From IMG/VR virus record IMGVR_UViG_3300028377_000007, positions 1 through 64,000 of that record: a stretch of DNA of 64,000 nucleotides; one strand, given 5' to 3'. The notes beneath the pieces were generated by a model that searched no databases, had not been told where the DNA came from, and saw only the letters and a list, made by a program, of their open reading frames with translations. Positions 41,815 through 56,384 of the stretch are shown piece by piece. Source of the stretch: a virus. Made by a program: the position numbers and the translations under genes. The stretch's first letter is position 1, and each line of letters begins with the position of its first letter.

Positions 41815-43524
41815 TTACATTATACTTTTAATACTTGTTTTATATTTTTTTGCGATTGGGATATTTCGGCCAAAACCAAAACTTCTTTTATTAACTCTTA
41901 AAATTGGCGGCATGATTCTCCTTTTGTACTCATTTTTCTCCACCATATTAATTATTTTTTCGATTTTGTCAATGGAAATTTCCTTAATTGCAGAAAAACA
42001 CTGTTCTTTTTCTTTGAAACTAAGTAAATCCCCCTCTAAATATAATTTTAAAACATTATCTAAAATATGATAAGGCGGTAGACTATCAGTGTCAACTTGC
42101 CCCCCCCATAATTCCGCGCTCGGTTCTTTATCAATAACAGATTTTGGGACAACTTCACAACCATAATAATTATTCATCCATTTTGCGAGAGTATATACCT
42201 CTGTTTTGTAAAGATCCCCTATAACAGAAATTCCCCCAACAGTATCCCCTAAAATTGAAAAATACCCCATAGAAGACTCTGATTTATTACTCGTATTTAA
42301 TACTAAAGCCCCAAAATCATTGGAATATTCCATTAATTTTCTTGCGCGAATTCTTGGTTGAATATTCTCAATTGTTAATCTCTTGGGCTGTTGAAATGTT
42401 TCTGTGTAATTTTTAATTGCCAACTCTACTTCTTCGCCGATTGGCATTGTATATAAATTAATACCCAACTCATCACATTGCTTTTTGCTATCTGTGATAC
42501 TTCCTTCGCTAGAAAATTTTGATGGCATTGTAATACACTCAATATTATCTTCGCCTAATATTTTAGCTGCTAAAGCAATTACTAAAGCCGAATCAATTCC
42601 CCCACTCGCTCCGACAACAGCTTTTGTGAAGCCATTTTTCCGAAAATAATCTTTAAGTCCGATTTCTAAAGAATTAAAAATATAAGTATATTTGTCGGAA
42701 GTAACCGTACTAATTTGTGTATTAGGAGATTTTGTACTTACAACTTGGGGAGATTTTGTACTTACAACTTGATTTGCTTCTCTAATTTCTTCTCTAAATC
42801 CGCACATAGTAATAACATCATCCCCATCAACATAAAAAGAATGCCCATCAAAAATTAATTCGTCATTTCCGCCGACTTGATTAACATAAACAAACGGAAC
42901 CTTATAAATTTTAGAAAGCTTTCGATACATATCATAACGGTCATTATGTTTAAGAATATTACTAGGAGAAGCGTTTAGGGTTATAATGGCTTCGATATTT
43001 TCGCTAGAATTTTTATACGGGGAAAGGGGCTCTGCATTGTATATTTTTCTACTAACAAAATTAGAATCATCAAAACAATCTTCGCATATTAAGATTCCAA
43101 CATCTCCATATTTACTATTGAAAACAACGCCGCTTTCTTTCCCAACTTCAAAGTATCTGCTTTCATCAAAGATATTATAAGTTGGTAACAATTGTTTGTT
43201 GTATGTTTTGGAAATTTTTCCGTCTTTAATATGAACTGCCGAATTAAAAAGAGGTTTGCCTATTTTATTGTTTTCTGTGATGCATCCCACGATTATTTCT
43301 GCGGGATTATTAAACGTTAATTCTACAAGTTTTTCAAGATAACAGTTTTGTTCTTCAATAAAATCTTTACGAAGCAACAAATCATTCGGTGGATACCCTG
43401 TTAAAGCTAATTCGCTATATACATGAACCCCTTGGAAATTTGGACTGTAATTTTGCTTTATTTTTAGAAAATTATTTTCTATATCTCCAACTGTGAAGTT
43501 TAATTGGTGTATTTTGAGGTTCAT
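41815..43524 (-). CDS. nadE: glutamine-dependent NAD+ synthetase
   Basis: Nitrilase domain E-K-C triad (SELALTGY, YNKQLLP, ICED) plus synthetase motifs SGGIDS, ENIQ.RIR, NKSE, DLYKT, PSAEL. Confidence 0.96.
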   Translation of the reverse strand: MNLKIHQLNFTVGDIENNFLKIKQNYSPNFQGVHVYSELALTGYPPNDLLLRKDFIEEQNCYLEKLVELTFNNPAEIIVGCITENNKIGKPLFNSAVHIKDGKISKTYNKQLLPTYNIFDESRYFEVGKESGVVFNSKYGDVGILICEDCFDDSNFVSRKIYNAEPLSPYKNSSENIEAIITLNASPSNILKHNDRYDMYRKLSKIYKVPFVYVNQVGGNDELIFDGHSFYVDGDDVITMCGFREEIREANQVVSTKSPQVVSTKSPNTQISTVTSDKYTYIFNSLEIGLKDYFRKNGFTKAVVGASGGIDSALVIALAAKILGEDNIECITMPSKFSSEGSITDSKKQCDELGINLYTMPIGEEVELAIKNYTETFQQPKRLTIENIQPRIRARKLMEYSNDFGALVLNTSNKSESSMGYFSILGDTVGGISVIGDLYKTEVYTLAKWMNNYYGCEVVPKSVIDKEPSAELWGGQVDTDSLPPYHILDNVLKLYLEGDLLSFKEKEQCFSAIKEISIDKIEKIINMVEKNEYKRRIMPPILRVNKRSFGFGRNIPIAKKYKTSIKSIM

Positions 43525-43525
43525 A

Positions 43526-43963
43526 TTATTGTAATTTTTCTTTAACCATAGAGGAAATTTTCTTAATGTCAACACTAATCCCGAATTTTTCCTTGATTTT
43601 CCCAATCACCTTGCCCATATCTCTCATAGACTCTGCCCCAACCTCTTTAATATATTGGTCTATCATATCTGGGTATTCAGATTCTAAAACTTTTTCTGGC
43701 AACAAATCGTCTAATACTTCTGATTTTTCAAAAAATAACAAAGACTCCGATGGTTTTTTATCTTTGAATAACTCATAAGAATCTAAGAATGCTTTCTTCT
43801 CTTTTTCGATAACAGAATAAATTTCGTCCTCTGAAAGCGTTTTGTTTTCTCTATTTTCCCTTTCTTGAATCGCGGATAAAACAGATTGGTATGCCAACAT
43901 TTTTGTTGGTTCTTTATTTTTGCGCGAAGCAAAGATATAGTCTTGGATTGTTTTTTTGTTCAT
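43526..43963 (-). CDS. GatB/YqeY domain protein
   Basis: E.K...S.E.F...E.EVL..LLP...MRDMGKVIG. Confidence 0.8.
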   Translation of the reverse strand: MNKKTIQDYIFASRKNKEPTKMLAYQSVLSAIQERENRENKTLSEDEIYSVIEKEKKAFLDSYELFKDKKPSESLLFFEKSEVLDDLLPEKVLESEYPDMIDQYIKEVGAESMRDMGKVIGKIKEKFGISVDIKKISSMVKEKLQ

Positions 43964-44057
43964 TTTTTTATTTTCCTTTCTTTATTAATTGTTTCTGCAA
44001 CCATAGAATGTATTTTAGATTCTTTCGACTAATACAAGCCTAACTGTTTCTAGCACT

Positions 44058-45179
44058 TCACTCATAATTTCTAATTATTAAATTTGTATAAGGAATCAAA
44101 GGCACCCCATATTCTGAATACTCTTGAAAATCAACTGTAATCACTTCGCCAATATATTTTTCTTTGTTTTCTAAAACCTCTCTTAAAAATTCCATTGTTC
44201 CACGAACATTAGACTCGAAAGTTTCTCCGTTGTCAAGCTCACAAACAATCTTTTTTGCACAACCGCCCCAGTTTCCTTTTCCCCCTAGAATATCAACAAT
44301 TTTAAACTCAGCGTCAATAAAGTTCTTTACTTTTAAAAGATCATGGGTTCTTTTGTGTTGATAAGGCATATCCTTGATTCTAAGAATTGCACCTTCATGG
44401 CCTTCGTTGATAATTTTTTCGGCAAATTCTTTTACTTCTATTTCATCGTTTGCGTATTCCCAAATAACTTCTTTGCAGTATTTTGATTCTTTGGCTATTT
44501 CTGTTATTTGCTGAAATCTTTTTTCATAAGGAACGCCTTCTTTCCCTTTAAAGTATCCGTCATAAACATAAAAACGAACTATTTCCTCTGATTCTTTTAT
44601 TAAATCATCTGTTAGATCTTTTTCTTTTCTTGTTACGGCTACTAATTTAATCAATCTATTTAAATTGTTGCGCAAGTCTTCGTTAAAAAGTTCCCCATCC
44701 AAAACTAAATCTGGATACTTTTCAAAAATAGGTTTTAAGGATTCTTTTATGTGTTTTATATTAAAAAATTCCTCCCCCTTTCTTGAGTTTGCGGAATCTT
44801 TACTTATTACGCATCTTACCCCGTTATATTTTATGTTCATTATAACGGGCCAAATGATTTCTTTTTTTCGATTTTTAAATGGTTTTGCTAAAACAGGTTG
44901 AATCCAAGACTCTTTATCTATGTCTTCAATGTTTTCGTAATGCTTTTGTTTCTTTTTCTTTTTGAATTTTGCCTCTGCTTCTATAAATGCTTGTTCTTCT
45001 GGAGTTGTTTCGTTCTTTTTACCGATATTTTTTACCTCGCAGAAAGTCGGTTTATCAATAACAATAGATCCACCTTGAATTCCATGTTCTGACCAGAATT
45101 TATTATCTTCGACTACAATAGTCCATTCTTGGATTGAGCCGCTTGTATTGCGCTTGTAAAGTGTTGGAAATTTTTTCAT
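44058..45179 (-). CDS. ATP-dependent DNA ligase
   Basis: P.LAK, KYNGVRC, SRKG, LDGEL, VYD, EGAILR, KR...LLKVK, OB domain. Confidence 0.93.
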   Translation of the reverse strand: MKKFPTLYKRNTSGSIQEWTIVVEDNKFWSEHGIQGGSIVIDKPTFCEVKNIGKKNETTPEEQAFIEAEAKFKKKKKQKHYENIEDIDKESWIQPVLAKPFKNRKKEIIWPVIMNIKYNGVRCVISKDSANSRKGEEFFNIKHIKESLKPIFEKYPDLVLDGELFNEDLRNNLNRLIKLVAVTRKEKDLTDDLIKESEEIVRFYVYDGYFKGKEGVPYEKRFQQITEIAKESKYCKEVIWEYANDEIEVKEFAEKIINEGHEGAILRIKDMPYQHKRTHDLLKVKNFIDAEFKIVDILGGKGNWGGCAKKIVCELDNGETFESNVRGTMEFLREVLENKEKYIGEVITVDFQEYSEYGVPLIPYTNLIIRNYE

Positions 45180-45254
45180 TATTTTAGTTCCTTGATTATC
45201 TTTTCTAATCTATCGAAAGATTTTCCTGTTATATTTGTAAGGCTGTAATTATTA

Positions 45255-46424
45255 TTAATAGTTTTCTATGGCGTGAATTAAATATTTAAGGTATAAAGGA
45301 TCTTCACAACTAGCCTTCCCAGAGTCAGCCGATAACTTTGCCACTGGTTGATCATTGTTCTTCGTAACCTTCATTACAATAGACGGAACTTTAATTCCAA
45401 CATCATTAGTTAAATCTGTTCCTATTCCAAAAATTGGCTCTATTTTCCCGCGACAATATTTTTCTATTTCAATTGCTTTTGGAATATTTAAGCCATCTGA
45501 GAATACAATTTTTTTAAACATAGGATCAATATTAAAATCTCTATACATTTTAACAATCATATCTGTATATTCAAAAGGACAACCACTGTCATGCCTTACT
45601 CCATCATACCCTTTTGCTAAGTCAAAGGAAAAATCCTTCAAAAACTTTTCATCCCCAAAGGTATCTGTCAAACAAATAGCTAATTTTCCCTTATATTGAT
45701 TTAACCATTGTTCAAAGATTTCTTTTTGGGAATTTTGAATTGGATATAAACTCTGAACGCCCATAAAAATTTCATGTCCCATTGTACCAATCGGAGTAGA
45801 GTCATATTTTCGCGCCAGATTAACATTTGAAGTCCCAGAAATAAGATTGTTTGAATTAAGCATAGAAAAGATATATTCTTGCCATTCCGCGCTGAATCTT
45901 CTTCTTGTTCCAAATTCTATTAAATTAATTTGGCTTTCTTTAAGGTACTTGATTTTTTCAATTATTTTTTCTGTACCATAATGTATTTCGAATGGAGTCC
46001 CATATTTAAAACTTTTCTCGCCATAAATTTCATTCACTATGCTCAAAACGATTGTCTCAAATAATATAACAGACAACCAACTACCTTTTGCTCGTAATTT
46101 CCAAGGCTCTGATTCATCATCGTTCTTTTCGAAAACCAATTGCGATGGATTAAATCTAAAATCTTGCAACCACCTTATAAAGCTATCGCTAAAATAACCC
46201 AAAGATTGCAAATATTTTTTTTCTTCATTAGTAAGTTTTAGGATTTTTAGTTTATTAAATTCTTCCAAAAGATCTGATGGCCTGATAATATTATAAAAAT
46301 CAGTGGCTTCCGCATTACGGCATTTAAACGTGTATTCAATTTCTACATTACTGAACCTATCATAAACCATTTGCGCAACGGTTAATTTATAAAGATCTAA
46401 ATCTAGTATGCTTTTTATAATCAT
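45255..46424 (-). CDS. pncB: nicotinate phosphoribosyltransferase
   Basis: DLYKLT, EFGTRRRFS, GTSNV, GTMGHE (phospho-His), LTDTFG, GVRHDSG, FSDGL, FGIGT, IVMK, AKLS. Confidence 0.95.
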   Translation of the reverse strand: MIIKSILDLDLYKLTVAQMVYDRFSNVEIEYTFKCRNAEATDFYNIIRPSDLLEEFNKLKILKLTNEEKKYLQSLGYFSDSFIRWLQDFRFNPSQLVFEKNDDESEPWKLRAKGSWLSVILFETIVLSIVNEIYGEKSFKYGTPFEIHYGTEKIIEKIKYLKESQINLIEFGTRRRFSAEWQEYIFSMLNSNNLISGTSNVNLARKYDSTPIGTMGHEIFMGVQSLYPIQNSQKEIFEQWLNQYKGKLAICLTDTFGDEKFLKDFSFDLAKGYDGVRHDSGCPFEYTDMIVKMYRDFNIDPMFKKIVFSDGLNIPKAIEIEKYCRGKIEPIFGIGTDLTNDVGIKVPSIVMKVTKNNDQPVAKLSADSGKASCEDPLYLKYLIHAIENY

Positions 46425-46425
46425 A

Positions 46426-46977
46426 TTAGTGGTGGGTCATTGTTTTTTTGTTTTTTGCTAAGTTAATTATAGTATCTAAATTCACTGGAGTATAATCCCA
46501 AAGATTTACTCCCATGTCAAACACTTTATGTTGATAATAGTCTTTTTGCTTGCCGATGAGGTTTCCATGAACATGACCGTGAAGATGAATTGCGTCCCTA
46601 TGGCATTTGTTCCACTCCAAAATCGGGAAATGAAACATACAAAACATCTGTCCTTTATATTTCAACTCATAATAGTCTTTTACCCAAACAAGTCTATCTC
46701 TAAAATCTTTATTATTTAAAGCTTTAAAATCGTGGTTGCCTTTAATAAAATGAATATTACCATTAAGTCTTTCAATTATTTTAATAGCTTTTTGTGCAGA
46801 AAAACAAAAATCCCCAAGATAATAAACATCTTCATTTGGTTCGACTACTTTATTCCAATTGGCGATATTAATTTCATCATGTTCTTGAATATCTTTGAAC
46901 GGCCTATTATCATATTTCATGATATTGACATGAGAAAAGTGTATGTCGGAGATTGCGAATTTATTGTTTTCTTGCAT
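46426..46977 (-). CDS. metallophosphoesterase
   Basis: ISDIHF.H, YLGDF, KGNHD, HFP, LHGHVH. Confidence 0.92.
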   Translation of the reverse strand: MQENNKFAISDIHFSHVNIMKYDNRPFKDIQEHDEINIANWNKVVEPNEDVYYLGDFCFSAQKAIKIIERLNGNIHFIKGNHDFKALNNKDFRDRLVWVKDYYELKYKGQMFCMFHFPILEWNKCHRDAIHLHGHVHGNLIGKQKDYYQHKVFDMGVNLWDYTPVNLDTIINLAKNKKTMTHH

Positions 46978-47203
46978 TTTATAGAGTTGTTTTAAATACT
47001 AAATTTCATTGTAAATCTTTCTGGCCTCTTTTATTTCACGAAGTCGTTTATATTTCTCTCGGATTGGTCTCCGTATTAATGAATAAGGGGTCCCGCTTCA
47101 ACTGGAAAATGGAGTGTTTCCGTATTCCAAGTTTTTGCGCCATTTAATACTCTTCTAATGTAGGGGATTATTTTGGATTTTTCTTCTTTTGTTAAAATCT
47201 TTT

Positions 47204-47734
47204 TCATACTAGTTTCTCCTGATTAGAAAGTCTACAAATTACAACATCAATACCATAATCCGCCGCTAATACTTCGATCATTTTCAAAATAATAGGAAAT
47301 CTAGCCCCAGCCAAATTACTTGCAATTCCGTAGGGCACTAAAATCTTATATTCTTTATCTTTGATACACGAAAACAAGCCTTTCACGCAATCGTGAAAAG
47401 CATCATAACTTGTGTCTCTATCCCCTAAACTATCTCTTGTAAATTTATATTGACTATAAAAATTGACTATAATCTTGTTTTCTGCAACTTTGGCGAAAGA
47501 ATAAGTTCCCAATTTGTTGCTATCGCCTTTTCTTGTTGAACAATCTGCTTGGTATGCTTCTGGGTATTTTTCGCGAATTAAGCGAGCAACACCACTCCCC
47601 ATTGTATGAAAACAATTTGCTTGATGAATTATTACAGCTTTTTCTGACTCCTCAAAAACCTCAAAAATATCTGCTTCTATAATTTTGCAAGTTCCTGATT
47701 CATAAAGTGTATGGTATTTACTTAATTCTTTCAT
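47204..47734 (-). CDS. macro domain (Appr-1-p processing) protein
   Basis: IIHQANCFHTMGSGVARLI..KYP, N.YSQ, PYGIASNLAG. Confidence 0.9.
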   Translation of the reverse strand: MKELSKYHTLYESGTCKIIEADIFEVFEESEKAVIIHQANCFHTMGSGVARLIREKYPEAYQADCSTRKGDSNKLGTYSFAKVAENKIIVNFYSQYKFTRDSLGDRDTSYDAFHDCVKGLFSCIKDKEYKILVPYGIASNLAGARFPIILKMIEVLAADYGIDVVICRLSNQEKLV

Positions 47735-48260: not shown

Positions 48261-49952
48261 TCATTTGCTATTCAATTTATATAATTTATTCGCACAAGCT
48301 ACTAACGTTTGATTTTTGTCGGAAAAAAGTAGATCCTCCGAATTCAATGGCGAGTCTAACACTTTTATGCGCGAATTGTCAACAAAAATCTCTATATTTT
48401 GGCCGTTTTTCGCAACAGAAACCCCTTTTTCTAAAACTGTAAAATCAAAATCGTCCAAATCAACTTTCTCACTTCTATATGTATATGTTCCATCTTTATT
48501 GAAACAAAAAACACATCTAAAATAATAACCACTTTTTTCTATAGTAAAGACAGCAACATTATTTAAGTATTTTACTTCAAGAATTTTTAATCCATTCAAC
48601 TCTTTTAAATAGGTCTTTTTCGCTGTATTGTTTTTCGGCGTAATAATATTAACCTTATTAAAAATCTTATTTCCATCGTCAAAAGGCCAATATTCGACAA
48701 CACAGCCATCAAATAATTCATAGTTCCAAAAAAGATTTGCCACTGGTTTATTTGAAGCCAGCAACTTTTTCATTTTGCTTATTTTAACTTCATAAAGGCT
48801 GTCTGCTTTTTCAATATAAATATTATTTTCATAAACAAAGAAATTTTTCGCCGCTATACTGCATTTATCTTGTTTTGTGATATTAAAAACTTCTATTGTT
48901 GACTTAGCTTTATCTAATTCTACAATATATGGTTCATTATTTAAAAATAAGAAGTCCCTTTTTATATTAGAATTTGCGTTTAATGATAGATTGAACTTGT
49001 TGCCATTTTTATAAAAACTATTTTTCGTTAATACATATTGAATCCCGAAATCATATTTTACAGATGCGATTATAGAATCAAAATCTTTTATTAATTCTAA
49101 AGAAAAACTTCCATTACTAGAAATTATTTTTGGCGTTACTTTTCCAATTTTGATTTCTTCGTCGTCTGACTTTGGCGGCTTTATTCTTTCCCCATGCTCG
49201 AAAACCTTTTGAAACCATTTTAAATGACTTTTCGGAATGACATCCCAATCTTGTGAGGCTGGCGGCAATTTGCTTTTATTATTAAAAACAGAAATTCCAT
49301 CCTCCAATCTTTTCAACCAATCTTTTATTCCGTAGTCTGGGTGTCTGCCTTTGTATGGATGCGAACCCATATACAATTCAAACATAACTATTCCCCAAGA
49401 AAACCAATCGCTTTCTTCTGTAAATTTTTTATTTTTAACAAGCGGGTCGCGGATACTATCCATGATTGCAGTTGCTGGGTAGTTCTTTGTTTGATAGCTA
49501 TCTACGTCTATATGATAAGGTGTTTTATAATCTCTGCTTACAAGAAAATTAAATGGATTGTAATCTACCACCAAAGTTTCATTTTTATGTACAAACTCTA
49601 ATACTTCTCTAAAGCCATCTACCAATGCTTTAATATTTTCTGGCGATACGTTGTTTTTATTTCTGTATCCTTTGTTAAAAAGTTTTACTAAATATTCGTT
49701 GTTTTTTATATAGGGCATCGAAAAACCTATATTTTCGCCCTTTGTATTTTGGATGGGAAATTTCGGGCATAGAATTTCTTTTCTATTTAACTTGGCAAGT
49801 TCGCCGATTTTTCCAGAAGAGATACATTTATTTTTTTCATGGTAAATCTTATAAGCAAATCCATCTTTCGTATAAATAGAAGCTTCTCCGCCTTGAGAAA
49901 GATAATTATTTTTTGATAAAAATATCTCTCTATTGTTTTCTATTATTTTCAC
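48261..49952 (-). CDS. YegI-like Ser/Thr protein kinase with a C-terminal beta domain
   Basis: GGEASIY, YKIYH, M.YI, H....VVD.NP.NFLV, IDVDSYQ, DWFSWG, HPYKG. Confidence 0.85.
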   Translation of the reverse strand: MKIIENNREIFLSKNNYLSQGGEASIYTKDGFAYKIYHEKNKCISSGKIGELAKLNRKEILCPKFPIQNTKGENIGFSMPYIKNNEYLVKLFNKGYRNKNNVSPENIKALVDGFREVLEFVHKNETLVVDYNPFNFLVSRDYKTPYHIDVDSYQTKNYPATAIMDSIRDPLVKNKKFTEESDWFSWGIVMFELYMGSHPYKGRHPDYGIKDWLKRLEDGISVFNNKSKLPPASQDWDVIPKSHLKWFQKVFEHGERIKPPKSDDEEIKIGKVTPKIISSNGSFSLELIKDFDSIIASVKYDFGIQYVLTKNSFYKNGNKFNLSLNANSNIKRDFLFLNNEPYIVELDKAKSTIEVFNITKQDKCSIAAKNFFVYENNIYIEKADSLYEVKISKMKKLLASNKPVANLFWNYELFDGCVVEYWPFDDGNKIFNKVNIITPKNNTAKKTYLKELNGLKILEVKYLNNVAVFTIEKSGYYFRCVFCFNKDGTYTYRSEKVDLDDFDFTVLEKGVSVAKNGQNIEIFVDNSRIKVLDSPLNSEDLLFSDKNQTLVACANKLYKLNSK

Positions 49953-50473: not shown

Positions 50474-51616
50474 TCATATATAAATATTCCTTCCAAATGG
50501 GGCTGGACCGACATTCTCTGTCAACAAAGTAATTTGTTTTGCGCGGGTTCTTTTCACATTCCAATCTGTATAACCATCTGTAATTGTTAATATAACATTC
50601 GGCTTTAATTTGTCAACATCCTCAATCGCTTTTCTCATCGAAGTTCCGCCGCCACCTAAAGCACAAATACTTTCGATGCTTTTAACTTGCTGTATGTTGT
50701 GTATTTCACAATCGGCGGAAATTATTTTTACATCATCGAATCTTTTTAATATAGCATTGACCTCCGACAAAACTTTGTTTCCTTCTGAATTCATTGACCC
50801 AGAAGTGTCTAGAATTACTGCGATAGATGGTTGCCTAGAATATGGAGAAGGAAAAATTAAATCGCCGCAATTTCTTCTATGATTAATTTTTGAATAAGTG
50901 ACATCATCATAGCCTCTTTTGATTATGCTTGCTATTCTACTTTTTAATTCTTTTCTATAATCGACTTTTGGCGGGGCCAATTGAAAATCTGCCCATATTT
51001 TCATTCCAATTGGAACATTCCCCTTTTCTTTAGAATGAGACTTTATGGCTTTTGCGGTTTCTTTTATAATACAATCAGCCATATACCCATCTATCCCTTC
51101 ATATTCCTCTGGTGTTCCTCCGTCTTTTGCCTCATTATATTCCCATTCCCTTTTTATACCATCCGAACAAGATCCTCCAAAAGTTGATTCCCCGCTTTCT
51201 TTCTCGCTCTTTCCTTTCTTTTTTTCTTCTCTATAATACTCTTCAGCGGTTAATCCATCCTCCATCGAAATTTGGTGGGGAAGACAAAAATCGAAAGGAA
51301 AAGGGAGGTCTTTTATGTCATCGTTTATTTCTCTATCTGTGGCATGATTCCAAGCCATAGCTTCTCTATTTGAAATTCTTTCGTGGTGTTTTCTTAGTAA
51401 GTGGGATAGCTCATGAATTAAAACTGTGGCAGTTACTTTTTCCCCCCATTTTTCAATTGTTTCTTCGGAATAATAACATCTCCAGAATTTATCTACACCC
51501 ATTGTTTCCAAGCCGTCAACTTTGATCATTTTCATAGAAAACAATCCAGTAGAGTAATAGGGGAACTTATGGGCCGCATAATATCGGGCCATTCTTATTT
51601 TTTCACTTTTATCCAT
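50474..51616 (-). CDS. DUF2201 metallopeptidase plus vWA domain protein
   Basis: LIHELSH, WN.A.D.EIN, LDTSGSM (MIDAS), GGGT, ITDGY. Confidence 0.9.
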   Translation of the reverse strand: MDKSEKIRMARYYAAHKFPYYSTGLFSMKMIKVDGLETMGVDKFWRCYYSEETIEKWGEKVTATVLIHELSHLLRKHHERISNREAMAWNHATDREINDDIKDLPFPFDFCLPHQISMEDGLTAEEYYREEKKKGKSEKESGESTFGGSCSDGIKREWEYNEAKDGGTPEEYEGIDGYMADCIIKETAKAIKSHSKEKGNVPIGMKIWADFQLAPPKVDYRKELKSRIASIIKRGYDDVTYSKINHRRNCGDLIFPSPYSRQPSIAVILDTSGSMNSEGNKVLSEVNAILKRFDDVKIISADCEIHNIQQVKSIESICALGGGGTSMRKAIEDVDKLKPNVILTITDGYTDWNVKRTRAKQITLLTENVGPAPFGRNIYI

Positions 51617-51617
51617 T

Positions 51618-52688
51618 TTAAGAACCCTCTAGGGACTTTCTTACTTCAACGAATTTTCTTATAAGACTTTTTTCAAAAATCTTGGGAATACCATAGTTTT
51701 TATTGATATTTTTTAGATTTTTAGAAGACATAACGGCGATATCAGACTTCTTATTTTGGCAAAGATGTTCTAATACTTCCCATCCTTTGTTCCATCTTTC
51801 CTCACTATTATTATCTCTAATTCTATTAATCACGCTATTAATAGTTAACATAGAAATATCATCTCTTTTTGAAATTTTCCAGCTTCTTGGCTTTCTTAGA
51901 ATTTCTTCTGGATCTGGCAAATCCAATGTTTTTTTCCAATTTACAAATTCAATTGCTGCTGATTCTCCAACGCAACCAGCAATAAAAGGGAAGGGATCTT
52001 CATTTAAAGATTCTGAAGCCGCAATAACAGTCGCCACGTTTGTCCAAGAGCGATACGAAGGCCAAGCCTCCCCTTGATTATCTCTGTCTTCTGGCATTTT
52101 GTTTGCTAGATCAGAATTTAAATTCAAGAAAGACGCCACATAATTTCTTGCGTCTTGAATCCCGTCTTTCCAATTTTTCGGCAAATCAAAATAATCCTCT
52201 GATTCAAAATTAGAAAGTAGTTTATTTGTCCACGTATTTAGATCCATTTTCCAATCCAAGTGACAAAACCTATTCGCCATAGGCGGTTCCAAATCGCTTC
52301 CATCTGCCGCTTCTTCTGGTGGATTTGACGCCGCTATAATAATAGTAGAATCTGGAAGAGAAAAAGAGTGAATTTTGCGACTTTGAATTAATGTCAAAGC
52401 TGGAGCTTGAACGCTTGGCCTTGCAGTCGTCAATTCATCAAAAAACAAAATACTTTTCTCTGCTTTCTCTAGCCTTTCCAACCAATCTGGCGGAGCAAAA
52501 ACTGTTCTTCCGTTTTTAATAAAAGGAATGCCACCGACATCTGATGGGTCTCTTTGGCTTAGAACCAATGTTTCACAATGATAGCCGAGTTTTCTAGCTA
52601 TGCTTTCTATCGCCGATGATTTTCCTTGACCGGGACTTGACCAATAAATTGTAGGTATACCCGCAAATGCTGGAATTAGTTGTTTCAT
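51618..52688 (-). CDS. MoxR-like AAA+ ATPase
   Basis: SSPGQGKS, FFDEL, AASNP, ANRF, SYRSW; adjacent to the vWA gene. Confidence 0.9.
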   Translation of the reverse strand: MKQLIPAFAGIPTIYWSSPGQGKSSAIESIARKLGYHCETLVLSQRDPSDVGGIPFIKNGRTVFAPPDWLERLEKAEKSILFFDELTTARPSVQAPALTLIQSRKIHSFSLPDSTIIIAASNPPEEAADGSDLEPPMANRFCHLDWKMDLNTWTNKLLSNFESEDYFDLPKNWKDGIQDARNYVASFLNLNSDLANKMPEDRDNQGEAWPSYRSWTNVATVIAASESLNEDPFPFIAGCVGESAAIEFVNWKKTLDLPDPEEILRKPRSWKISKRDDISMLTINSVINRIRDNNSEERWNKGWEVLEHLCQNKKSDIAVMSSKNLKNINKNYGIPKIFEKSLIRKFVEVRKSLEGS

Positions 52689-52704
52689 ATTCTTATGTTT
52701 TAGT

Positions 52705-53511
52705 TTATTGTTTGTTATTGAATACCACAAGACTCAAATCATCGAAATGGCTCAGGTTTTCTTTTTTTTGAGTTTTTTCGAATTTTTCTAATCTTCTTTC
52801 AACGAATTTGCCAGAAAAGTTCTTAAAGTCAAGCATTTTTTGTATGGAAATTATAGATTTTTCATCTGAAAAGGATTCTATCCCGTCACTCGTTAGAGCT
52901 ATCCATTCGTAATCAAGGCAACCTGAATAAAAATGCGTTTGGTTTTTGTCCGAGAAATTTAAATCTTGTTCTGGAACGCTTTCGCATTTAAGGTTACTAA
53001 AAAAACTTTCTTGCTTTCTTTTATATTCCCCACTTAAAAATTCACCCCTATTATTTTTAAAAAAAGAATAAAACGGATAAAAAGGAGCAGAATTTTCAAA
53101 CTCGATTGTTGTTCTTTCTATATGACCACTTTTGTATTTAACAACAATATTTCCGTCTCCAAATATGCCATATTGTGTGATATTTTTTTTCTTGTGGTGC
53201 AAGACACATAAAAGAGTAGAAGAAAGGTTTTCTTCTAATTCTGAAACAATAAATTGACTATTCTCTAATCTAGTAAAAATGTTTATCAAAAACATATCCC
53301 AGAAGTTTTTCGTTTCAAAGATTTTTTCTAAACTATCTAAATTATTTTTTGCGGCATGAGCAACCAATCTTGCGCCGAAATCTGTATTTTTAGCTCCACT
53401 ACAACCGTCACAAAGAAAACCATAAACAAAATGTTCTGTTTCTCCATGAAGCGCATAATCTTGACAAATTTTATGTTTATCACCGATAATATAATGCGAA
53501 TCTATATTCAT
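52705..53511 (-). CDS. PP2C-family protein phosphatase (YegK-like)
   Basis: G..H.ICQD, CDGCS, STL, GDG, TSDG, DD.S. Confidence 0.88.
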   Translation of the reverse strand: MNIDSHYIIGDKHKICQDYALHGETEHFVYGFLCDGCSGAKNTDFGARLVAHAAKNNLDSLEKIFETKNFWDMFLINIFTRLENSQFIVSELEENLSSTLLCVLHHKKKNITQYGIFGDGNIVVKYKSGHIERTTIEFENSAPFYPFYSFFKNNRGEFLSGEYKRKQESFFSNLKCESVPEQDLNFSDKNQTHFYSGCLDYEWIALTSDGIESFSDEKSIISIQKMLDFKNFSGKFVERRLEKFEKTQKKENLSHFDDLSLVVFNNKQ

Positions 53512-53591
53512 TTTTACTCAGATAAAATATCTTTTTTGTTCTGCAAACTTTTCTCTTTTTATTTTTGCAATTACTTTGTCGCCTATTTTCA

Positions 53592-54515
53592 TTATATTAT
53601 CCCATTCCACAAAAGCCTTTCAATAATCGGATTATGCAATTTCTCTATTTCTGGCAATTTTTTTGTTTTAAACCACTTTAATTTTTGTATGTCGTCTTGG
53701 GCTTTAAACTTAGTGCCTTCTTTTATGGAAACTTGAAAAACGGAAGTTCTAATCTTGTTTTTTGTTTTATTGTATCTTGGATCATCAATGTTTATATTTC
53801 CTAGATAACGAAGGTCTTCTTCTTTTACTGTAATATTTGTTTCCTCGAATAATTCCCTTATCGCGTCTTCTTCATAATCTTCGCTATTTGGATCGGCAAA
53901 ACCGCCAACGATGCGCCAAGAAGTTTGATTTGTTTTTTGTGCCAAAAGAACCTTTGTTTGCTCCAAATTAGTTATTACAATATCAACCGTTGGAATAACC
54001 GTTGGAAATTGATTATTTAAACAATAAACTATTCCTTTTTGGAAATCCTCATTAAGAATCTCTTTGTTTATTGATTCTCTGACCTCTGTTGCGGAAATGT
54101 TTTCCTCTGCTTGAATGTCTTTTTTCTCGAAAGAACCGTTATAAGGAAAGGAATCTCTGCTTCCATAAAGGGTAATTTTGTCGTAGCCTTTTATTTTCTT
54201 GATTTGGGAATCTAAATTTTTAGACCAAATATCTAAATTGTATACATCTTTAATTTCTAGAAAATGTAGTTTTGGACTTTTCTTTAATAACAGTATGCTT
54301 TTTATGTATAGCAAACACCTTTTTATGATGCATTTTCTGTAATTAAATGATAAAGGATTTCTATTGGTTTTGCCATCTAATTTCGATGAGCCAATAAAAA
54401 CTGCTATGCCATCGACCTTATTTTTTAAAATAACTTCTCTAAATAAATTTTCGTGCCCTTCTGTTAAAAATGGGGACTGAAATCTACCGACTATTACTGC
54501 TAGTTTTTTTGACAT
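53592..54515 (-). CDS. nadM: bifunctional NMN/NaMN adenylyltransferase plus Nudix (ADP-ribose pyrophosphatase), NadM-Nudix type
   Basis: GRFQ..L.EGH, IGS, RNPL.F..R, SAT.VR; Nudix box GGF.D...ED.EEDAIRELFEET, DPRY, A.DD. Confidence 0.88.
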   Translation of the reverse strand: MSKKLAVIVGRFQSPFLTEGHENLFREVILKNKVDGIAVFIGSSKLDGKTNRNPLSFNYRKCIIKRCLLYIKSILLLKKSPKLHFLEIKDVYNLDIWSKNLDSQIKKIKGYDKITLYGSRDSFPYNGSFEKKDIQAEENISATEVRESINKEILNEDFQKGIVYCLNNQFPTVIPTVDIVITNLEQTKVLLAQKTNQTSWRIVGGFADPNSEDYEEDAIRELFEETNITVKEEDLRYLGNINIDDPRYNKTKNKIRTSVFQVSIKEGTKFKAQDDIQKLKWFKTKKLPEIEKLHNPIIERLLWNGII

Positions 54516-55269
54516 TTTTTTATGTATTTATTATATTTACGGATTCCACTCGGGAATTTTTTCATATTCTTCTTTAGACATAGAAACTTCTTGTATTTCG
54601 ACAATTGATTCTTTCCCTATTAAATCGAAAAGCTCTTTAATTGTCGAGTTTTTTGGGAGTATCAAATCTTGAATTCCTCCGTCGAATATGATTTTGTAAT
54701 ACATAATATTAGTCGAAATGTATCTTGATTTTTTTTACTTCTGAGATCGGGAAAATAATAATATCTTTTTCATCCCAAAAAGAAACAACTTCATTATTAT
54801 CGCCAAAAGGAGTAGTTTGTCTTATCATTTTTCTATTATTTAAATACTAAGATTTGTGCTAGGACCACCAGTTCCAAGGCTTTGGCTCGAACTAGAAATA
54901 GACCTAGAAACGAAATCTGCTAATTTAGCCAAGCTTTTTGCGGTAACTCCGTTGATGAAAATGAATTGAGTTCTTGCATTTTTTTATCAGATTCTGAATC
55001 TATTTTTATAATACCGCTATTTGGTATATCTATAAACTTAATTAAATTATTAAATTGTTTAAAAGCGTTCGGATTTTTTTCTGTGTCATAACACTTTTTA
55101 AAACAAAACATCGTTGTCGGGACATTATTCTCTGATAGAGTCTTCATACATTCTTGAATAATGTCTTCCTTTTCTTTTTCTTCTGGAAATTTTTCAAGAA
55201 ACTCTCTGTTCTTTTTATCCGCTTCTGCCTGTTCTGCCTCGAATTGCTCTATATTTATATTTTTTCATT

Positions 55270-55595
55270 TTATTTTTCTTCTACTGAGATAATATTTCTG
55301 TATTTTGAAAAGATAGGGAGTCTAAAGCCGTATACGGATGCTTCGTATTCTTCATTTTTTTGAATATTTCCGTAAATATCTGAACTATCGAATTTAAAAT
55401 ACATAATAGAATCGGTATTCTCAAACGTTTCTTCTTTCGTGTAGATTAAATATTTTGAATCACCGCTTTTAACAATTCTTTCTTTATCTGTAACTACTAT
55501 ATTTAGAGTTTCCTTTGTTATATATGGATAGCTAATAAAAGCTGCCACAACAAATAAAATAATAGCTACTACAATATATACTTCTTTGTTTTTCA
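55270..55595 (-). CDS. membrane-anchored phage protein (DUF1523-like)
   Basis: TM helix, then VTDKER...KYLIYT...FENTDS...KFDSSD...V.G.R.P..S.YRNII. Confidence 0.7.
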
Positions 55596-56384
55596 TGAAA
55601 AGAATTTGTCGGAAGTTGTAATTTGGATTCCCTTGCTTTTTGCCCAATTCATAAAATCATCATGAAAAGACTCAAAACCAGTTACTGGACTCATACAATC
55701 TTCGAGAAGGACTAATTTTTTGGCTTGTTCTTCTCCGAATTGATCAACACAATCTTCTATTGTTGTTTTAACACAGTGGGAGCTTGCTTGACCCGACACA
55801 AGGATTCTGTCTGCTTCTTGTAACCTTTGAATAAAAGATGTATTAATATCTGTGCTTGGGTCTTCTGGGTCAAGAACATCAGCTTGAATAGCGGAATAAT
55901 GTTCTGTAAATGGATTTGAACCCTTCGTTACCCAATCTACCAAAGCAAATTCTTTTTGCCATTCAATCAACGCATCAGAAAAAGAAGGAAAAACAGCATA
56001 ACCTTTTGTGCCGATCAAACAATGTTCTGGCCAAATAAACAAACTATACCTGCCGTTTTCTTCTAGCTTTCTAACATAGGATTCTGCCCTTGATTGAAAA
56101 GAGGGATTATAAGTCTTATATTTACCGTTTTTAACATCTTCTAGACTGATTGGGGTAAATGGCGAAGGATGGTTCCCATTACTATCAACCCAAAAAATAG
56201 GGTGAGCAACATGAACCACTTGATGACTATCCAATGTTACTCGAACATCATCAATTTTTTCTTTATGCTTGATTAGCATCGAAGCCAATCTATCCATATC
56301 TTTTTCCGCCCCATTGACATAAAGCGAACCGTTTGGATCGCAGAAATCATTTTGCGGATCAATTGTTAATAGTGTGATTTTCAT
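55593..56384 (-). CDS. pncA: nicotinamidase-like cysteine hydrolase
   Basis: IDPQNDFC, TLDSH, WPEHC, KG, GQASSHCV (catalytic D-K-C plus metal ligands). Confidence 0.85.
   Translation of the reverse strand: MKITLLTIDPQNDFCDPNGSLYVNGAEKDMDRLASMLIKHKEKIDDVRVTLDSHQVVHVAHPIFWVDSNGNHPSPFTPISLEDVKNGKYKTYNPSFQSRAESYVRKLEENGRYSLFIWPEHCLIGTKGYAVFPSFSDALIEWQKEFALVDWVTKGSNPFTEHYSAIQADVLDPEDPSTDINTSFIQRLQEADRILVSGQASSHCVKTTIEDCVDQFGEEQAKKLVLLEDCMSPVTGFESFHDDFMNWAKSKGIQITTSDKFFS

What the first reader, a model, noticed from the sequence alone, without database searches (positions are those of the whole stretch)
41815..56384. Complete four-step deamidated NAD+ rebuilding pathway in a phage (PncA, PncB, NadM-Nudix, NadE)
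Seen: nicotinamidase-like hydrolase (55593), NadM-Nudix (53592), a true PncB (DLYK/EFGTRRR/GHE, not NadV-type) and a Gln-dependent NadE, all within 15 kb and all apparently intact. Established: NADase defences (Thoeris, DSR, SIR2-HerA, SEFIR) give nicotinamide plus ADP-ribose. The described phage countermeasures NARP1 (Adps/Namat) and NARP2 (Nampt/Nmnat, as in KVP40 NadV/NatV) are two-step amidated routes. Inference: this is a third route (Nam to nicotinate to NaMN to NaAD to NAD), with the Nudix domain recycling ADP-ribose to ribose-5-phosphate. Deamidated intermediates might escape NADases.
Basis: partly seen in the sequence, partly recalled or inferred. Interest (0 to 1): 0.82.

Follow-up and report, generated by a model that had tools for sequence, protein, structure and literature searches.

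The report
Phage nicotinamide-to-NAD+ salvage gene cluster
A large lake-water phage carries intact genes for all four steps that turn nicotinamide back into NAD+ through nicotinic acid, wrapped around a kinase-phosphatase module; similar gene sets are already reported in giant phages, but nobody has tested what they do.

Summary
All four genes are intact on the minus strand: a PncA-like nicotinamidase (55593-56384), NadM-Nudix (53592-54515), a true PncB (45255-46424) and a glutamine-dependent NadE (41815-43524). The record is an 87-kb T4-like phage contig, about 59% complete.

- Preiss-Handler gene sets in jumbo phages are already published (Li et al. 2024, PMC11662467).
- The name NARP3 is already taken by PnuC/NadR.
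- No counter-defence activity of this route has been shown.

The PncA-like gene is the head of a conserved cassette: PncA, a vWA protein, a PP2C phosphatase and a Ser/Thr kinase. In 80 viral loci these partners occur in 77, 72 and 69 loci. The cassette also occurs in bacteria, where the ADP-ribose-sensing repressor NrtR is often nearby. NAD genes are repeatedly inserted into or beside it. This scan has noted the same cassette before on other DNA.

In 33 large cassette-bearing phage records, 12 have candidates for all four steps, and no Nampt was seen in the three weak cases I checked.

In this phage the vWA gene is a remnant. Salt-lake variants have lost pncB and most of the kinase.

Verdict: a real, coherent deamidated salvage set and a new variant of a known kind. 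Its function is inferred.

The parts
55593..56384 (-). PncA-like nicotinamidase (263 aa), head gene of the cassette
   Evidence: D9/K154/C204 and D52/H54/H121 are invariant in 32 homologues. These pair with matching residues of yeast Pnc1; the Mtb PncA alignment covers only part. It scores below the Pfam and NCBIfam cut-offs. 5967 homologues were found among 6329 candidates.
55270..55647 (-). 125-aa ORF with a hydrophobic N-terminal stretch (DUF1523 / phrog_301 'secreted protein'); it sits where other phages have the vWA gene
   Evidence: No homologue in 0 of 80 viral loci.
54843..54983 (-). 3' remnant (about 45 codons) of the cassette's vWA gene; the vWA domain itself is missing
   Evidence: The cluster-1 HMM matches only positions 207-248 of 255 (193-253 with HMMER's filters off), E 1.6e-13, with stop codons upstream in that frame.
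53592..54515 (-). NadM-Nudix: HIGH-type nucleotide adenylyltransferase fused to a Nudix hydrolase (307 aa)
52705..53511 (-). PP2C phosphatase, orthologue of the cassette's PP2C
   Evidence: Pfam PP2C_2 at 9e-12. Cassette PP2C HMM at 2.2e-63 over positions 2-268 of 271. Homologues in 73 of 80 loci.
51618..52730 (-). MoxR-like AAA ATPase, inserted between PP2C and the kinase
   Evidence: Pfam AAA_5. A homologue in only 1 of 80 loci.
50474..51616 (-). DUF2201 protein (metallopeptidase-like N-terminal domain plus VWA-like domain), partner of the MoxR ATPase
   Evidence: Pfam DUF2201_N at 1.3e-20 and DUF2201 at 1.5e-14. Homologues in 0 of 80 loci.
48261..49952 (-). Ser/Thr-type protein kinase (563 aa), orthologue of the cassette's kinase
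   Evidence: Pfam Pkinase at 3.8e-08. Cassette kinase HMM at 2.4e-163 over positions 4-561 of 561. Homologues in 69 of 80 loci. Largely deleted in the salt-lake variants.
47204..47734 (-). Macro-domain protein, a possible ADP-ribose-derivative hydrolase
   Evidence: phrog_335 at 9.4e-44. Weak hits to Macro, DarG and ADP-ribose 1''-phosphate phosphatase models and structures. Homologues in 4 of 80 loci.
46426..46977 (-). Calcineurin-like metallophosphoesterase; its stop codon lies 1 nt before the pncB ATG
   Evidence: phrog_547 at 7.5e-49. PDB 1xm7 at 1.3e-10. Homologues in 15 of 80 loci. Coordinates.
45255..46424 (-). PncB, nicotinate phosphoribosyltransferase (389 aa)
44058..45179 (-). ATP-dependent DNA ligase (not NAD-dependent), lying between pncB and yqeY
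   Evidence: Pfam DNA_ligase_A_M and NF006592. Homologues in 6 of 80 loci.
43526..43963 (-). YqeY-like protein; it ends 1 nt before the nadE ATG
   Evidence: Pfam YqeY at 3.5e-24. Coordinates.
41815..43524 (-). Glutamine-dependent NAD+ synthetase NadE (569 aa counted from the ATG at 43522-43524)

Best explanation
This is a phage-encoded deamidated (Preiss-Handler-type) NAD+ salvage set.

The proposed route:
1. PncA hydrolyses nicotinamide to nicotinate.
2. PncB joins nicotinate to PRPP to give NaMN.
3. The adenylyltransferase domain of NadM-Nudix, or failing that the host's NadD, makes NaAD.
4. The two-domain NadE amidates NaAD to NAD+ using glutamine.
5. The Nudix domain most likely splits ADP-ribose into AMP and ribose-5-phosphate. 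Host Prs could then turn that into the PRPP that PncB needs.

The set lets the infected cell rebuild NAD+ from the two products of NAD+ cleavage. It would therefore help the phage when NAD+ is being consumed, most plausibly by NAD+-depleting defence systems.

The first enzyme belongs to a conserved PncA-vWA-PP2C-kinase cassette, so flux is probably under phosphorylation control. In this phage the vWA partner has decayed, and a MoxR/DUF2201-VWA pair sits in the cassette instead.

Shown here: gene identity, intact catalytic motifs, and recurrent linkage of these genes in phages and bacteria.
Inferred: every enzymatic activity, use of NaMN by NadM, regulation by the kinase, and the counter-defence role.
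For: Linkage in 80 viral loci carrying the PncA-like gene (80 kept of 135 confirmed, from 175 pattern matches):
- 34 loci have an NAD gene within +-10 kb.
- 23 loci have one within 1.5 kb of PncA.
- 8 of 68 loci have one between PncA and the kinase.

Whole-record search of the 33 records of >=100 kb (33 of the 80):
- NAPRTase family in 22. Of these, 17 are clear PncB-type, and 3 of the 5 weak ones were examined: all three have TIGR01513-type nicotinate PRTase as best family (two above the curated cut-off, G018 below it), not Nampt.
- NadE in 20.
- A cytidylyltransferase-like gene in 20.
- All four steps in 12.

Other cassettes carry a NadD-like gene plus a free-standing Nudix where this phage has the fused NadM-Nudix.

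In bacteria the same PncA family sits with vWA, kinase and PP2C (33, 29 and 22 of the 39 loci of >=12 kb). PncB is present in 11 of those 39, and an NrtR gene in 24 of 80.

A secondary source states that the Francisella and Acinetobacter NadM enzymes accept both NaMN and NMN (PMC6128845, passages).

The amidated phage route NARP2 is experimentally proven to defeat Thoeris and DSR2 (Osterman et al. preprint, passages).

An independent lake sample has the same gene order from nadE to the vWA remnant (X3).
Against: - No activity was measured.
- PncA and NadM score below the curated family cut-offs, and their folds could not be modelled.
- NadM-family enzymes are named NMN adenylyltransferases, and this one's preference is unknown.
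- The route costs more ATP than Nampt plus Nmnat, and its end product is still a substrate for NADases.
- The cassette's vWA gene is a pseudogene remnant here.
- Contigs from two salt-lake samples carry a 2265-bp deletion that removes the ligase and all but about 67 codons of pncB, and a 1321-bp deletion inside the kinase. One of them also has the middle of nadE replaced. The set is therefore dispensable in some populations.
- 2 of the 18 near-complete cassette-bearing records (G032, G033) have no pncB, nadE or cytidylyltransferase hit at all.
- The record is only about 59% complete, so a Nampt elsewhere in the genome cannot be excluded.
- No RNA run holds the locus. This says nothing either way about expression.
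Confidence: 0.6

Rival explanations
1. General metabolic booster, not counter-defence. The phage raises NAD+ supply for its own replication and for NAD+-using enzymes, whatever the host's immunity.
For: Li et al. 2024 read the jumbo-phage NAD genes this way. The Osterman preprint notes that NARP2 raises NAD+ even without a defence system. The bacterial cassette sits in ordinary NrtR-type salvage contexts.
Against: The 87-kb record has no NAD-dependent ligase and no Tpt1, and its ligase is ATP-dependent. The route starts from nicotinamide and pairs with an ADP-ribose-type Nudix, which are the two products of NADase action.
Confidence: 0.25
2. Split route. NadM-Nudix handles only NMN and ADP-ribose, as KVP40 NatV is described. 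The phage's deamidated branch (PncA, PncB, NadE) then depends on the host's NadD for NaMN -> NaAD, so the phage does not encode a self-contained pathway.
For: The family is named for NMN. NadD is near-universal in bacteria (my own knowledge). G029 (100% complete by CheckV), one of the two large records with a full NadM-Nudix, also has a second cytidylyltransferase-like gene near nadE.
Against: Dual specificity is reported for two NadM enzymes (secondary source). NadM-Nudix occupies the neighbourhood where other cassettes have a NadD-like gene plus a Nudix gene. No Nampt that could supply NMN was found in the 87 kb.
Confidence: 0.3
3. PncA's main job is to remove or sense nicotinamide as part of the kinase/phosphatase signalling cassette, and the NAD-synthesis genes are optional add-ons. 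Removing nicotinamide might, for example, relieve inhibition of NAD+-using enzymes or report NADase attack.
For: vWA, PP2C and kinase accompany PncA in 77, 72 and 69 of 80 viral loci, whereas PncB, NadM and NadE accompany it in 20, 18 and 16. Some near-complete phage records have the cassette and no other NAD gene.
Against: At least 19 of the 33 large records carry a clear nicotinate PRTase (20 counting G018, whose best hit is below cut-off), and NAD genes are interleaved within the cassette. Bacterial versions sit with pncB and NrtR.
Confidence: 0.15
4. Francisella-type order. NadE amidates NaMN to NMN, and NadM then makes NAD+ from NMN.
For: NadM and NadE co-occur without NadD, as in Francisella. 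That pathway is recalled from Sorci et al. 2009, which I saw cited but did not read.
Against: This NadE is the two-domain glutamine type. It matches the NAD+ synthase equivalog above its cut-off and canonical Gln-dependent enzymes at about 1e-85. It matches the single-domain NH3-dependent chain 3fiu only at 4.8e-21; that 3fiu is the Francisella enzyme is my recollection.
Confidence: 0.07
5. Decaying cargo. The cluster is under relaxed selection in this lineage and no longer works as a unit.
For: The vWA gene is a pseudogene remnant. Deletion variants lacking pncB and the kinase exist in two salt-lake samples.
Against: All four NAD ORFs, PP2C and the kinase are full-length with catalytic motifs. 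The exact PncA protein was seen on 9 contigs and the exact NadM protein on 7. The gene order is conserved in an independent lake sample.
Confidence: 0.1

Closest known systems
Preiss-Handler gene sets of 'NAD-jumbo phages' (Li et al., Microbiome 2024, PMC11662467)
   Same: Phage-encoded pncB and nadE plus an adenylyltransferase, clustered together. The paper mentions phage pncA. All evidence there is bioinformatic.
   Different: This record is an 87-kb contig estimated 59% complete, so it is probably below the 200-kb jumbo limit. The adenylyltransferase is a fused NadM-Nudix rather than NadD. PncA is explicitly part of the set. The kinase/PP2C cassette is not mentioned in the parts of the paper I read. 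Supplementary Tables S5 and S8, which I could not see, may list such cases.
NARP2 (KVP40 Nampt/NadV plus Nmnat/NatV; Osterman et al. preprint 10.1101/2024.02.11.579819)
   Same: It starts from nicotinamide and PRPP, uses an adenylyltransferase, and rebuilds NAD+ in infected cells. It is proven to overcome Thoeris and DSR2. That KVP40 NatV carries a fused Nudix domain is my recollection; no passage I read says so.
   Different: NARP2 has two amidated steps, while this set has four deamidated ones. No Nampt was found here. KVP40 was not hit by this NadM-Nudix at E<=1e-8.
Bacterial pyridine nucleotide cycle PncA-PncB-NadD-NadE under NrtR
   Same: Same chemistry. The same PncA subfamily sits with pncB and NrtR in bacterial genomes.
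   Different: Here the genes are on a virus, there is no NrtR, and NadM-Nudix takes the place of NadD.
TerY-P triad (TerY-like vWA + PP2C + Ser/Thr kinase; described in PMC10542128, which cites Anantharaman et al. 2012 and Gao et al. 2020)
   Same: The same three-component architecture next to the PncA-like gene in phages and bacteria.
   Different: The matches to PADLOC defence models were weak (best E 3.4e-06), to families named mad6, PD-T4-6 and PDC-M21C and none to a TerY-named model. The triad is tied to a nicotinamidase. In this window the vWA member is only a remnant.
NARP1-AP (Adps-Adpp-Namat; preprint 10.64898/2026.01.28.702374) and NARP3 (PnuC-NadR; PMC13464706)
   Same: Phage NAD+ rebuilding modules. 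NARP1-AP includes a Macro-domain ADPR-1''-phosphate phosphatase, and a Macro gene lies two genes upstream of pncB here.
   Different: No Prs/Adps-type gene and no PnuC were found in the record. The Macro protein's activity is unknown.

Membership tests
Nicotinamidase (PncA, isochorismatase-like cysteine hydrolases) | Asp-Lys-Cys catalytic triad | tested here: met
   D9, K154 and C204 are invariant in 32 homologues. They pair with matching residues of Pnc1 in the printed alignment; the Mtb PncA alignment shows the Asp and Cys only. That these are the catalytic residues is recalled.
Nicotinamidase (PncA, isochorismatase-like cysteine hydrolases) | Metal site (Asp-x-His plus the His of WPxHC) that binds the pyridine nitrogen | tested here: met
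   D52, H54 and H121 are invariant and pair with a D, an H and H94 of Pnc1 in the alignment. H94 is counted from the alignment; the numbering of the other two, and the metal-site role, are recalled.
Nicotinamidase (PncA, isochorismatase-like cysteine hydrolases) | Score above the curated family cut-offs | tested here: not met
   Pfam PF00857 scores 25.1 against 27. NF008623 scores 45 against 174. The family has an insertion of roughly 30-60 residues relative to short PncAs, judged from the alignments.
Nicotinamidase (PncA, isochorismatase-like cysteine hydrolases) | Isochorismatase fold and nicotinamide deamidase activity | not testable with these tools
The activity needs a bench assay.
PncB (nicotinate phosphoribosyltransferase) | Equivalog model above cut-off and the two-domain layout | tested here: met
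   TIGR01514 scores 377.1 against 269.55 and NF003704 scores 429 against 379. Pfam finds NAPRTase_N plus NAPRTase.
PncB (nicotinate phosphoribosyltransferase) | Nicotinate type rather than Nampt/NadV type | tested here: met
   All 6 PDB hits at E<=1e-10 are nicotinate PRTases. The PHROG 'nicotinamide PRTase' family matches only at 4.8e-12. GTMGHE aligns with GTMAHE of 1yir.
NadM-Nudix (bifunctional NMN adenylyltransferase / ADP-ribose pyrophosphatase) | N-terminal HIGH-type nucleotidyltransferase domain plus C-terminal Nudix domain | tested here: met
   The family profile matches 2qjt and 2qjo over both domains. The motifs GRFQ...TEGH, ISATEVR and RELFEET are present.
NadM-Nudix (bifunctional NMN adenylyltransferase / ADP-ribose pyrophosphatase) | Score above the curated equivalog cut-off | tested here: not met
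   The best model, NF003786, scores 56 bits against 397.
NadM-Nudix (bifunctional NMN adenylyltransferase / ADP-ribose pyrophosphatase) | Accepts NaMN, as the proposed route needs | not testable with these tools
   There is only indirect support: a secondary literature statement and positional equivalence with NadD-like genes in other cassettes.
Glutamine-dependent NAD+ synthetase (NadE) | CN-hydrolase domain with Glu-Lys-Cys, plus a synthetase domain with an SGGxDS loop, and an equivalog model above cut-off | tested here: met
   NF010588 scores 515.7 against 479. The alignment to 5kha is and the motif positions.
NARP2 | Nampt (NadV) present together with Nmnat | tested here: not met
   PF04095 matches once in the 87-kb record, and that match is PncB. 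The record is about 59% complete.
NARP1 / NARP1-AP | Adps (a Prs-like enzyme) and Namat | tested here: not met
   No Pribosyltran_N match and no second NAPRTase-family gene in the record.
NARP3 | PnuC transporter with NadR | tested here: not met
   No NMN_transporter match in the record. NadR was not searched for separately.
TerY-P triad | A vWA protein, a PP2C phosphatase and a Ser/Thr kinase encoded together | tested here: inconclusive
   PP2C and the kinase are present and full-length. The vWA member is only a 3' remnant here, although it is present in 77 of 80 related viral loci. PADLOC matches were weak and to other named families (mad6, PD-T4-6, PDC-M21C), none TerY-named. The kinase's C-terminal domain was not analysed.
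'NAD-jumbo phage' (Li et al. 2024) | Genome over 200 kb with a complete salvage or Preiss-Handler pathway | tested here: inconclusive
   Pathway candidates are complete. The record is 87 kb at 59% estimated completeness, so about 150 kb by inference.

The most novel reading that the evidence does not exclude
The PncA-(vWA)-PP2C-kinase cassette may be a phosphorylation switch that senses NAD+ breakdown and turns on a phage-encoded deamidated NAD+ reconstitution pathway, in effect a regulated 'NARP4'. This phage would be a variant in which a MoxR/DUF2201-VWA pair has replaced the lost vWA adaptor.
Probability: 0.15. Interest if true: 0.85.

Novelty: new variant of a known kind. Interest (0 to 1): 0.5.

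Why it matters
Three phage routes that rebuild NAD+ have been shown experimentally to defeat NAD+-depleting immunity: NARP1, NARP2 and NARP3. The deamidated route has only been listed in genome surveys.

This locus is a compact, intact and testable example. It starts from nicotinamide itself and pairs the route with an ADP-ribose-type Nudix.

It also shows that the phage nicotinamidase belongs to a kinase/phosphatase cassette shared with bacteria. I did not find that link in the papers I could search. If the kinase controls the route, NAD+ salvage has a regulatory layer that has not been studied.

The natural deletion variants, which lack pncB and the kinase, offer ready-made comparisons.

Tried and rejected
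Steps that led nowhere or were blocked:
- Megablast of the whole 14.6-kb cluster against the phage records found no match.
- A single-protein scan of viral contigs with PncB found nothing. I replaced it with the PncA-family alignment.
Fold-level membership therefore rests on profile-to-sequence matches only.
I therefore cannot say whether the nearest relatives keep the vWA gene or carry a Nampt.
- The promoter and terminator scan found 69 promoter-like and 8 terminator-like sites, against 64.4 and 7.9 expected from shuffles. It is uninformative.
- No RNA holder was listed among the 24 sequencing runs.
- In one search the PncA stretch (55423-56384) had almost no laid contigs in the four runs. 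The tool warns that such a hole proves nothing.
- Joints in X11 with side 21 (43988->54557 and 46725->49421) were ignored as unreliable.

A reading I corrected: I first took five weak NAPRTase-family matches in longer ORFs to be Nampt. Three of the five were examined and have TIGR01513-type nicotinate PRTase as best family (G014 and G017 above the cut-off, G018 below it). G022 and G026 were not examined.

Readings I considered and rejected:
- That the cassette is a close relative of the stand-alone TerY-P defence system. PADLOC gave only weak matches, none to a TerY-named model.
- That 'deamidated intermediates escape NADases' is evidence-based. Nothing here bears on it.

Papers and supplements:
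- Lee et al. 2017 on KVP40 is not held. What I say about KVP40 comes from passages of the Osterman preprint.
- Anantharaman 2012, Gao 2020, Sorci 2009 and Huang 2008 were not read. They are cited through other papers or from recall.
- I did not request any supplementary files. Tables S5 and S8 of PMC11662467 and Table S2 of the Osterman preprint may list phages with pncA or this gene set.

Counting caveats:
- The 80 viral loci include near-duplicates: there are 40 distinct label architectures. G007 and G029 look like the same phage type.
- 'All four steps' counts any PF01467 (cytidylyltransferase-like) gene as the adenylyltransferase.

Full report
WHAT IS THERE.
The window is the first 64 kb of an 87,040-bp IMG/VR virus record with a CheckV completeness of 59%. 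It carries rIIA, rIIB, two RNA ligases, polynucleotide kinase, a clamp-loader-like gene, three tRNAs and, beyond the window, DNA polymerase, helicase, primase-like and UvsX genes. It is therefore a large T4-like phage. GC content is about 0.30-0.34 and all genes of the region lie on the minus strand. No close DNA relative is among the 50,697 phage records searched.

THE FOUR ENZYMES.
- NadE. The ORF runs 41815-43605, but the ATG at 43522-43524 lies 1 nt after the yqeY stop and gives 569 aa. It has CN_hydrolase and NAD_synthase domains. It scores 515.7 bits on the NAD+ synthase equivalog NF010588, whose cut-off is 479. It aligns end to end with Gln-dependent NAD+ synthetases 5kha and 4f4h (E 2.4e-85 and 3.1e-83), with the Glu, Lys and Cys motifs of the glutaminase domain and the SGGIDS loop in register.
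- PncB (45255-46424). It passes two curated nicotinate PRTase models. All 6 of its PDB hits at E<=1e-10 are nicotinate PRTases.
- NadM-Nudix (53592-54515). As a single sequence it is weak: 56 bits against a cut-off of 397, and Pfam sees only the Nudix half. A profile of 27 homologues matches the two solved bifunctional NadM-Nudix enzymes over both domains, at 5.1e-26 and 1.2e-22. The nucleotidyltransferase and Nudix motifs are present.
- The PncA-like protein (55593-56384). It is below the Pfam and NCBIfam cut-offs. It belongs to a large family of proteins of about 265 aa: 5967 hits among 6329 candidates. In that family the catalytic Asp-Lys-Cys and the three metal ligands are invariant in 32 sampled members. 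These six residues pair with matching residues of yeast Pnc1; the M. tuberculosis PncA alignment covers only three of the six positions. Of the 7 PDB hits to the family profile, 5 are named nicotinamidase or pyrazinamidase.

I scanned IMG/VR with the PncA-family alignment. There were 175 pattern matches, 135 confirmed relatives, and 80 loci kept with up to 10 kb of flank on each side where the contig allowed. I clustered all neighbouring ORFs without prior labels.
- The three commonest neighbours are a vWA-like protein of about 249 aa (77 of 80 loci), a PP2C phosphatase (72 of 80) and a protein kinase of about 565 aa (69 of 80).
- The NAD genes are rarer neighbours: PncB 20, NadM-Nudix 18, NadE 16, a metallophosphoesterase 15, ATP ligase 6 and Macro 4 of 80.
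- The window has true orthologues of the PP2C (E 2.2e-63) and the kinase (E 2.4e-163).
- Of the vWA gene, only the last 45 or so codons survive, at about 54843-54983, with stops upstream. A 125-aa ORF with a hydrophobic N-terminus and a 75-aa ORF lie in its place.
- A MoxR-type ATPase and a DUF2201 (metallopeptidase-like plus VWA) gene sit between PP2C and the kinase. They have homologues in 1 and 0 of the 80 loci.
The architecture is that of the TerY-P triad (passages of PMC10542128). The matches to PADLOC defence models were weak (best E 3.4e-06), to families named mad6, PD-T4-6 and PDC-M21C, none TerY-named.

ARE THE NAD GENES LINKED TO THE CASSETTE?
Yes.
- In 34 of 80 loci an NAD gene lies within +-10 kb. 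In 23 it lies within 1.5 kb of PncA. In 8 of the 68 loci that hold both PncA and the kinase, an NAD gene lies between them.
- Example orders are PncA-vWA-PncB-NadE-PP2C-NadD-like-kinase-Nudix (L062) and PncA-vWA-PP2C-PncB-NadE-kinase (L077).
- The loci include near-duplicates: there are 40 distinct architectures.
I then searched the whole records of the 33 loci whose contigs are >=100 kb.
- NAPRTase family: 22 of 33. Of these, 17 are clear PncB-type.
- NadE: 20 of 33.
- A cytidylyltransferase-like gene: 20 of 33.
- Full-length NadM-Nudix: 2 of 33.
- Five weak NAPRTase matches in longer ORFs looked like Nampt to me. The three I examined have the second nicotinate PRTase family, TIGR01513, as their best match: 341 and 406.3 bits against a cut-off of 297.4, and 262 bits (below the cut-off) for the third.
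- Counting those three, 16 of 33 records have a nicotinate PRTase plus NadE, and 12 of 33 have candidates for all four steps.
- Two near-complete records (G032, G033) have the cassette but none of the other NAD genes.
- Where other cassettes have a small adenylyltransferase, the one representative I scanned has NadD models as its 11 best NCBIfam hits (TIGR00482 at 81.7 bits, below its cut-off of 112.45), and a separate Nudix gene lies nearby. It is unrelated in sequence to this phage's NadM. The fused NadM-Nudix therefore looks like a non-orthologous replacement at the NaMN adenylylation step. This is an inference.

BACTERIAL SIDE.
- Of the 39 fetched loci of >=12 kb, vWA is a neighbour in 33, the kinase in 29, PP2C in 22, all three in 22 and PncB in 11.
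- A neighbour cluster found in 24 of the 80 loci is NrtR: a Nudix domain plus the NrtR winged-helix domain, at E 1e-25 to 7e-15 in the three members tested.
NrtR is named in NCBIfam as the ADP-ribose-responsive repressor (one search lists that model's name). Its role in NAD regulons is from my own knowledge of Rodionov et al. 2008, which I did not read here. This ties the cassette to NAD and ADP-ribose metabolism independently of the phage data.

THE OTHER KNOWN PHAGE ROUTES ARE ABSENT FROM THE RECORD.
In the 87 kb there is one NAPRTase-family gene (PncB), no Prs/Adps-type gene and no PnuC. There is also no NAD-dependent ligase and no Tpt1. The record is incomplete, so absence is provisional.

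POPULATION DATA.
The stretch 46426-56384 of the cluster is held by 24 listed DNA runs from lake-water and salt-lake metagenomes, and none is on record as RNA. I laid contigs of four runs on 41815-56384.
- An independent lake sample (X3) covers 41815-44809 and 44819-54969 colinearly, with 14 and 33 differing letters. The gene order from nadE to the vWA remnant is therefore not an artefact of one assembly.
- Two salt-lake samples (X6 and X11, from different studies) share a joint 43958->46224. It removes 2265 bp: the ligase and all but about 67 codons of pncB.
- They also share a joint 48441->49763, which removes 1321 bp inside the kinase and is not a multiple of three.
- X6 additionally has 42194-43425, the middle of nadE, replaced by 827 other letters.
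- Because the joints fall inside ORFs, loss is the simpler reading. Contigs cannot give frequencies.

LITERATURE.
- Li et al. 2024 (PMC11662467; abstract, passages and section 17 read) report 174 of 668 gut jumbo phages with a complete salvage or Preiss-Handler pathway. They describe a pncB-nadD-nadE cluster and mention phage pncA in the discussion. All of it is bioinformatic.
- Iyer et al. 2021 (PMC7824862; passages) describe only the Nampt/Nmnat-Nudix/NadR-type system. The words PncA, NadE, PP2C and TerY do not occur in the text.
- The Osterman preprint has no PncA, PncB, NadE or Preiss-Handler mention. It proves NARP1 and NARP2 experimentally.
- NARP3 is PnuC plus NadR.
- NARP1-AP adds a Macro-domain ADPR-1''-phosphate phosphatase.
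- My searches for a nicotinamidase linked to PP2C, a kinase and vWA, or for PncA as an anti-defence gene, listed no paper describing them.
- Deposited huge-phage records already contain the set without annotation. LR756500 has PncB, NadM-Nudix, PncA and a partial NadE-like match (30% of the query) within about 34 kb. LR756511 has PncB, NadE and PncA.

EARLIER NOTES OF THIS SCAN.
After I had found the cassette myself, the notes showed that the scan has met it many times on other DNA: 131 notes in at least 108 genomes. Several follow-ups reached the same reading and also found no paper. The NrtR link was their lead, and I tested it. They name E. coli yegL-pphC-yegI as an example of the triad; I did not test that.

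VERDICT.
The four-gene deamidated route is real, intact and part of a recurrent phage module. The claim that it is a new, third counter-defence route is only partly right. The gene set is in print for jumbo phages, its function is untested, and this phage's relatives can lose pncB. What is distinctive here:
- a probably sub-jumbo T4-like genome;
- NadM-Nudix in place of NadD;
- a Macro/phosphoesterase pair next to pncB;
- the embedding in a PncA-PP2C-kinase cassette whose vWA member has decayed.
I rate it a new variant of a known kind, with moderate interest.

Noticed in passing
window 54843-54983 (minus strand): Only the 3' end (about 45 codons) of the cassette's vWA gene survives. Elsewhere this gene is present in 77 of 80 related viral loci. 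A 125-aa ORF with a hydrophobic N-terminus (55270-55647) and a 75-aa ORF (54920-55147) occupy its place.
   Followed up: yes
window 50474-52730 (minus strand): A MoxR-type AAA ATPase and a DUF2201 (metallopeptidase-like plus VWA) gene sit between PP2C and the kinase. Homologues are almost absent from the other 80 cassettes (1 and 0 loci). They may be a functional replacement for the lost vWA partner.
   Followed up: partly
window 43958/46224 and 48441/49763 (joints in runs X6 and X11): Salt-lake population variants lack the ATP ligase plus most of pncB (2265 bp) and most of the kinase (1321 bp). In X6 the middle of nadE (42194-43425) is replaced by 827 other letters.
   Followed up: partly
window 46426-47734 (minus strand): A Macro-domain gene and a calcineurin-like phosphoesterase lie just upstream of pncB, and the phosphoesterase stop is 1 nt from the pncB ATG. 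A Macro-domain ADPR-1''-phosphate phosphatase accompanies 15% of NARP1 operons (preprint 10.64898/2026.01.28.702374). Whether this Macro protein does the same, or acts like DarG, is open.
   Followed up: partly
window 43526-43963 (minus strand): A YqeY-like (GatB/YqeY domain) gene ends 1 nt before the nadE start codon, which suggests translational coupling with the glutamine-dependent NAD+ synthetase. No homologue was found in the other 80 loci.
   Followed up: no
window 42724-42771 (minus strand): The NadE inter-domain linker holds a perfect tandem duplication of eight residues (QVVSTKSP twice). Sample X3 shows substitutions and a net 6-nt shorter version at 42734-42748, so the linker is polymorphic.
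   Followed up: partly
L006-L009, L046, L050-L052 (viral loci): A LAGLIDADG homing-endonuclease gene lies on the opposite strand right beside the PncA-like gene: between NadM-Nudix and PncA in most of these phages, and between PncA and vWA in L046.
   Followed up: no
G014:C1:174746-176092, G017:C1:108970-110316, G018:C1:90512-92083: Some huge cassette-bearing phages carry the second nicotinate PRTase family (TIGR01513 type) instead of the TIGR01514 type seen in this window. Two different pncB families have therefore been recruited to the same module.
   Followed up: partly
GenBank records LR756500 and LR756511 (hits H1, H7, H14, H44, H47, H50, H51): Unannotated huge-phage genomes from public metagenomes contain PncA-like, PncB and NadE-like genes (in LR756500 the NadE match covers only 30% of the query). 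LR756500 also has NadM-Nudix, with all four within about 34 kb.
   Followed up: partly
L083:2094-3050 (G000 85094-86050, minus strand): A 318-aa gene matches a PHROG annotated 'dehydrogenase' (4.3e-62). It is a possible NAD(P)-using enzyme of the phage.
   Followed up: no
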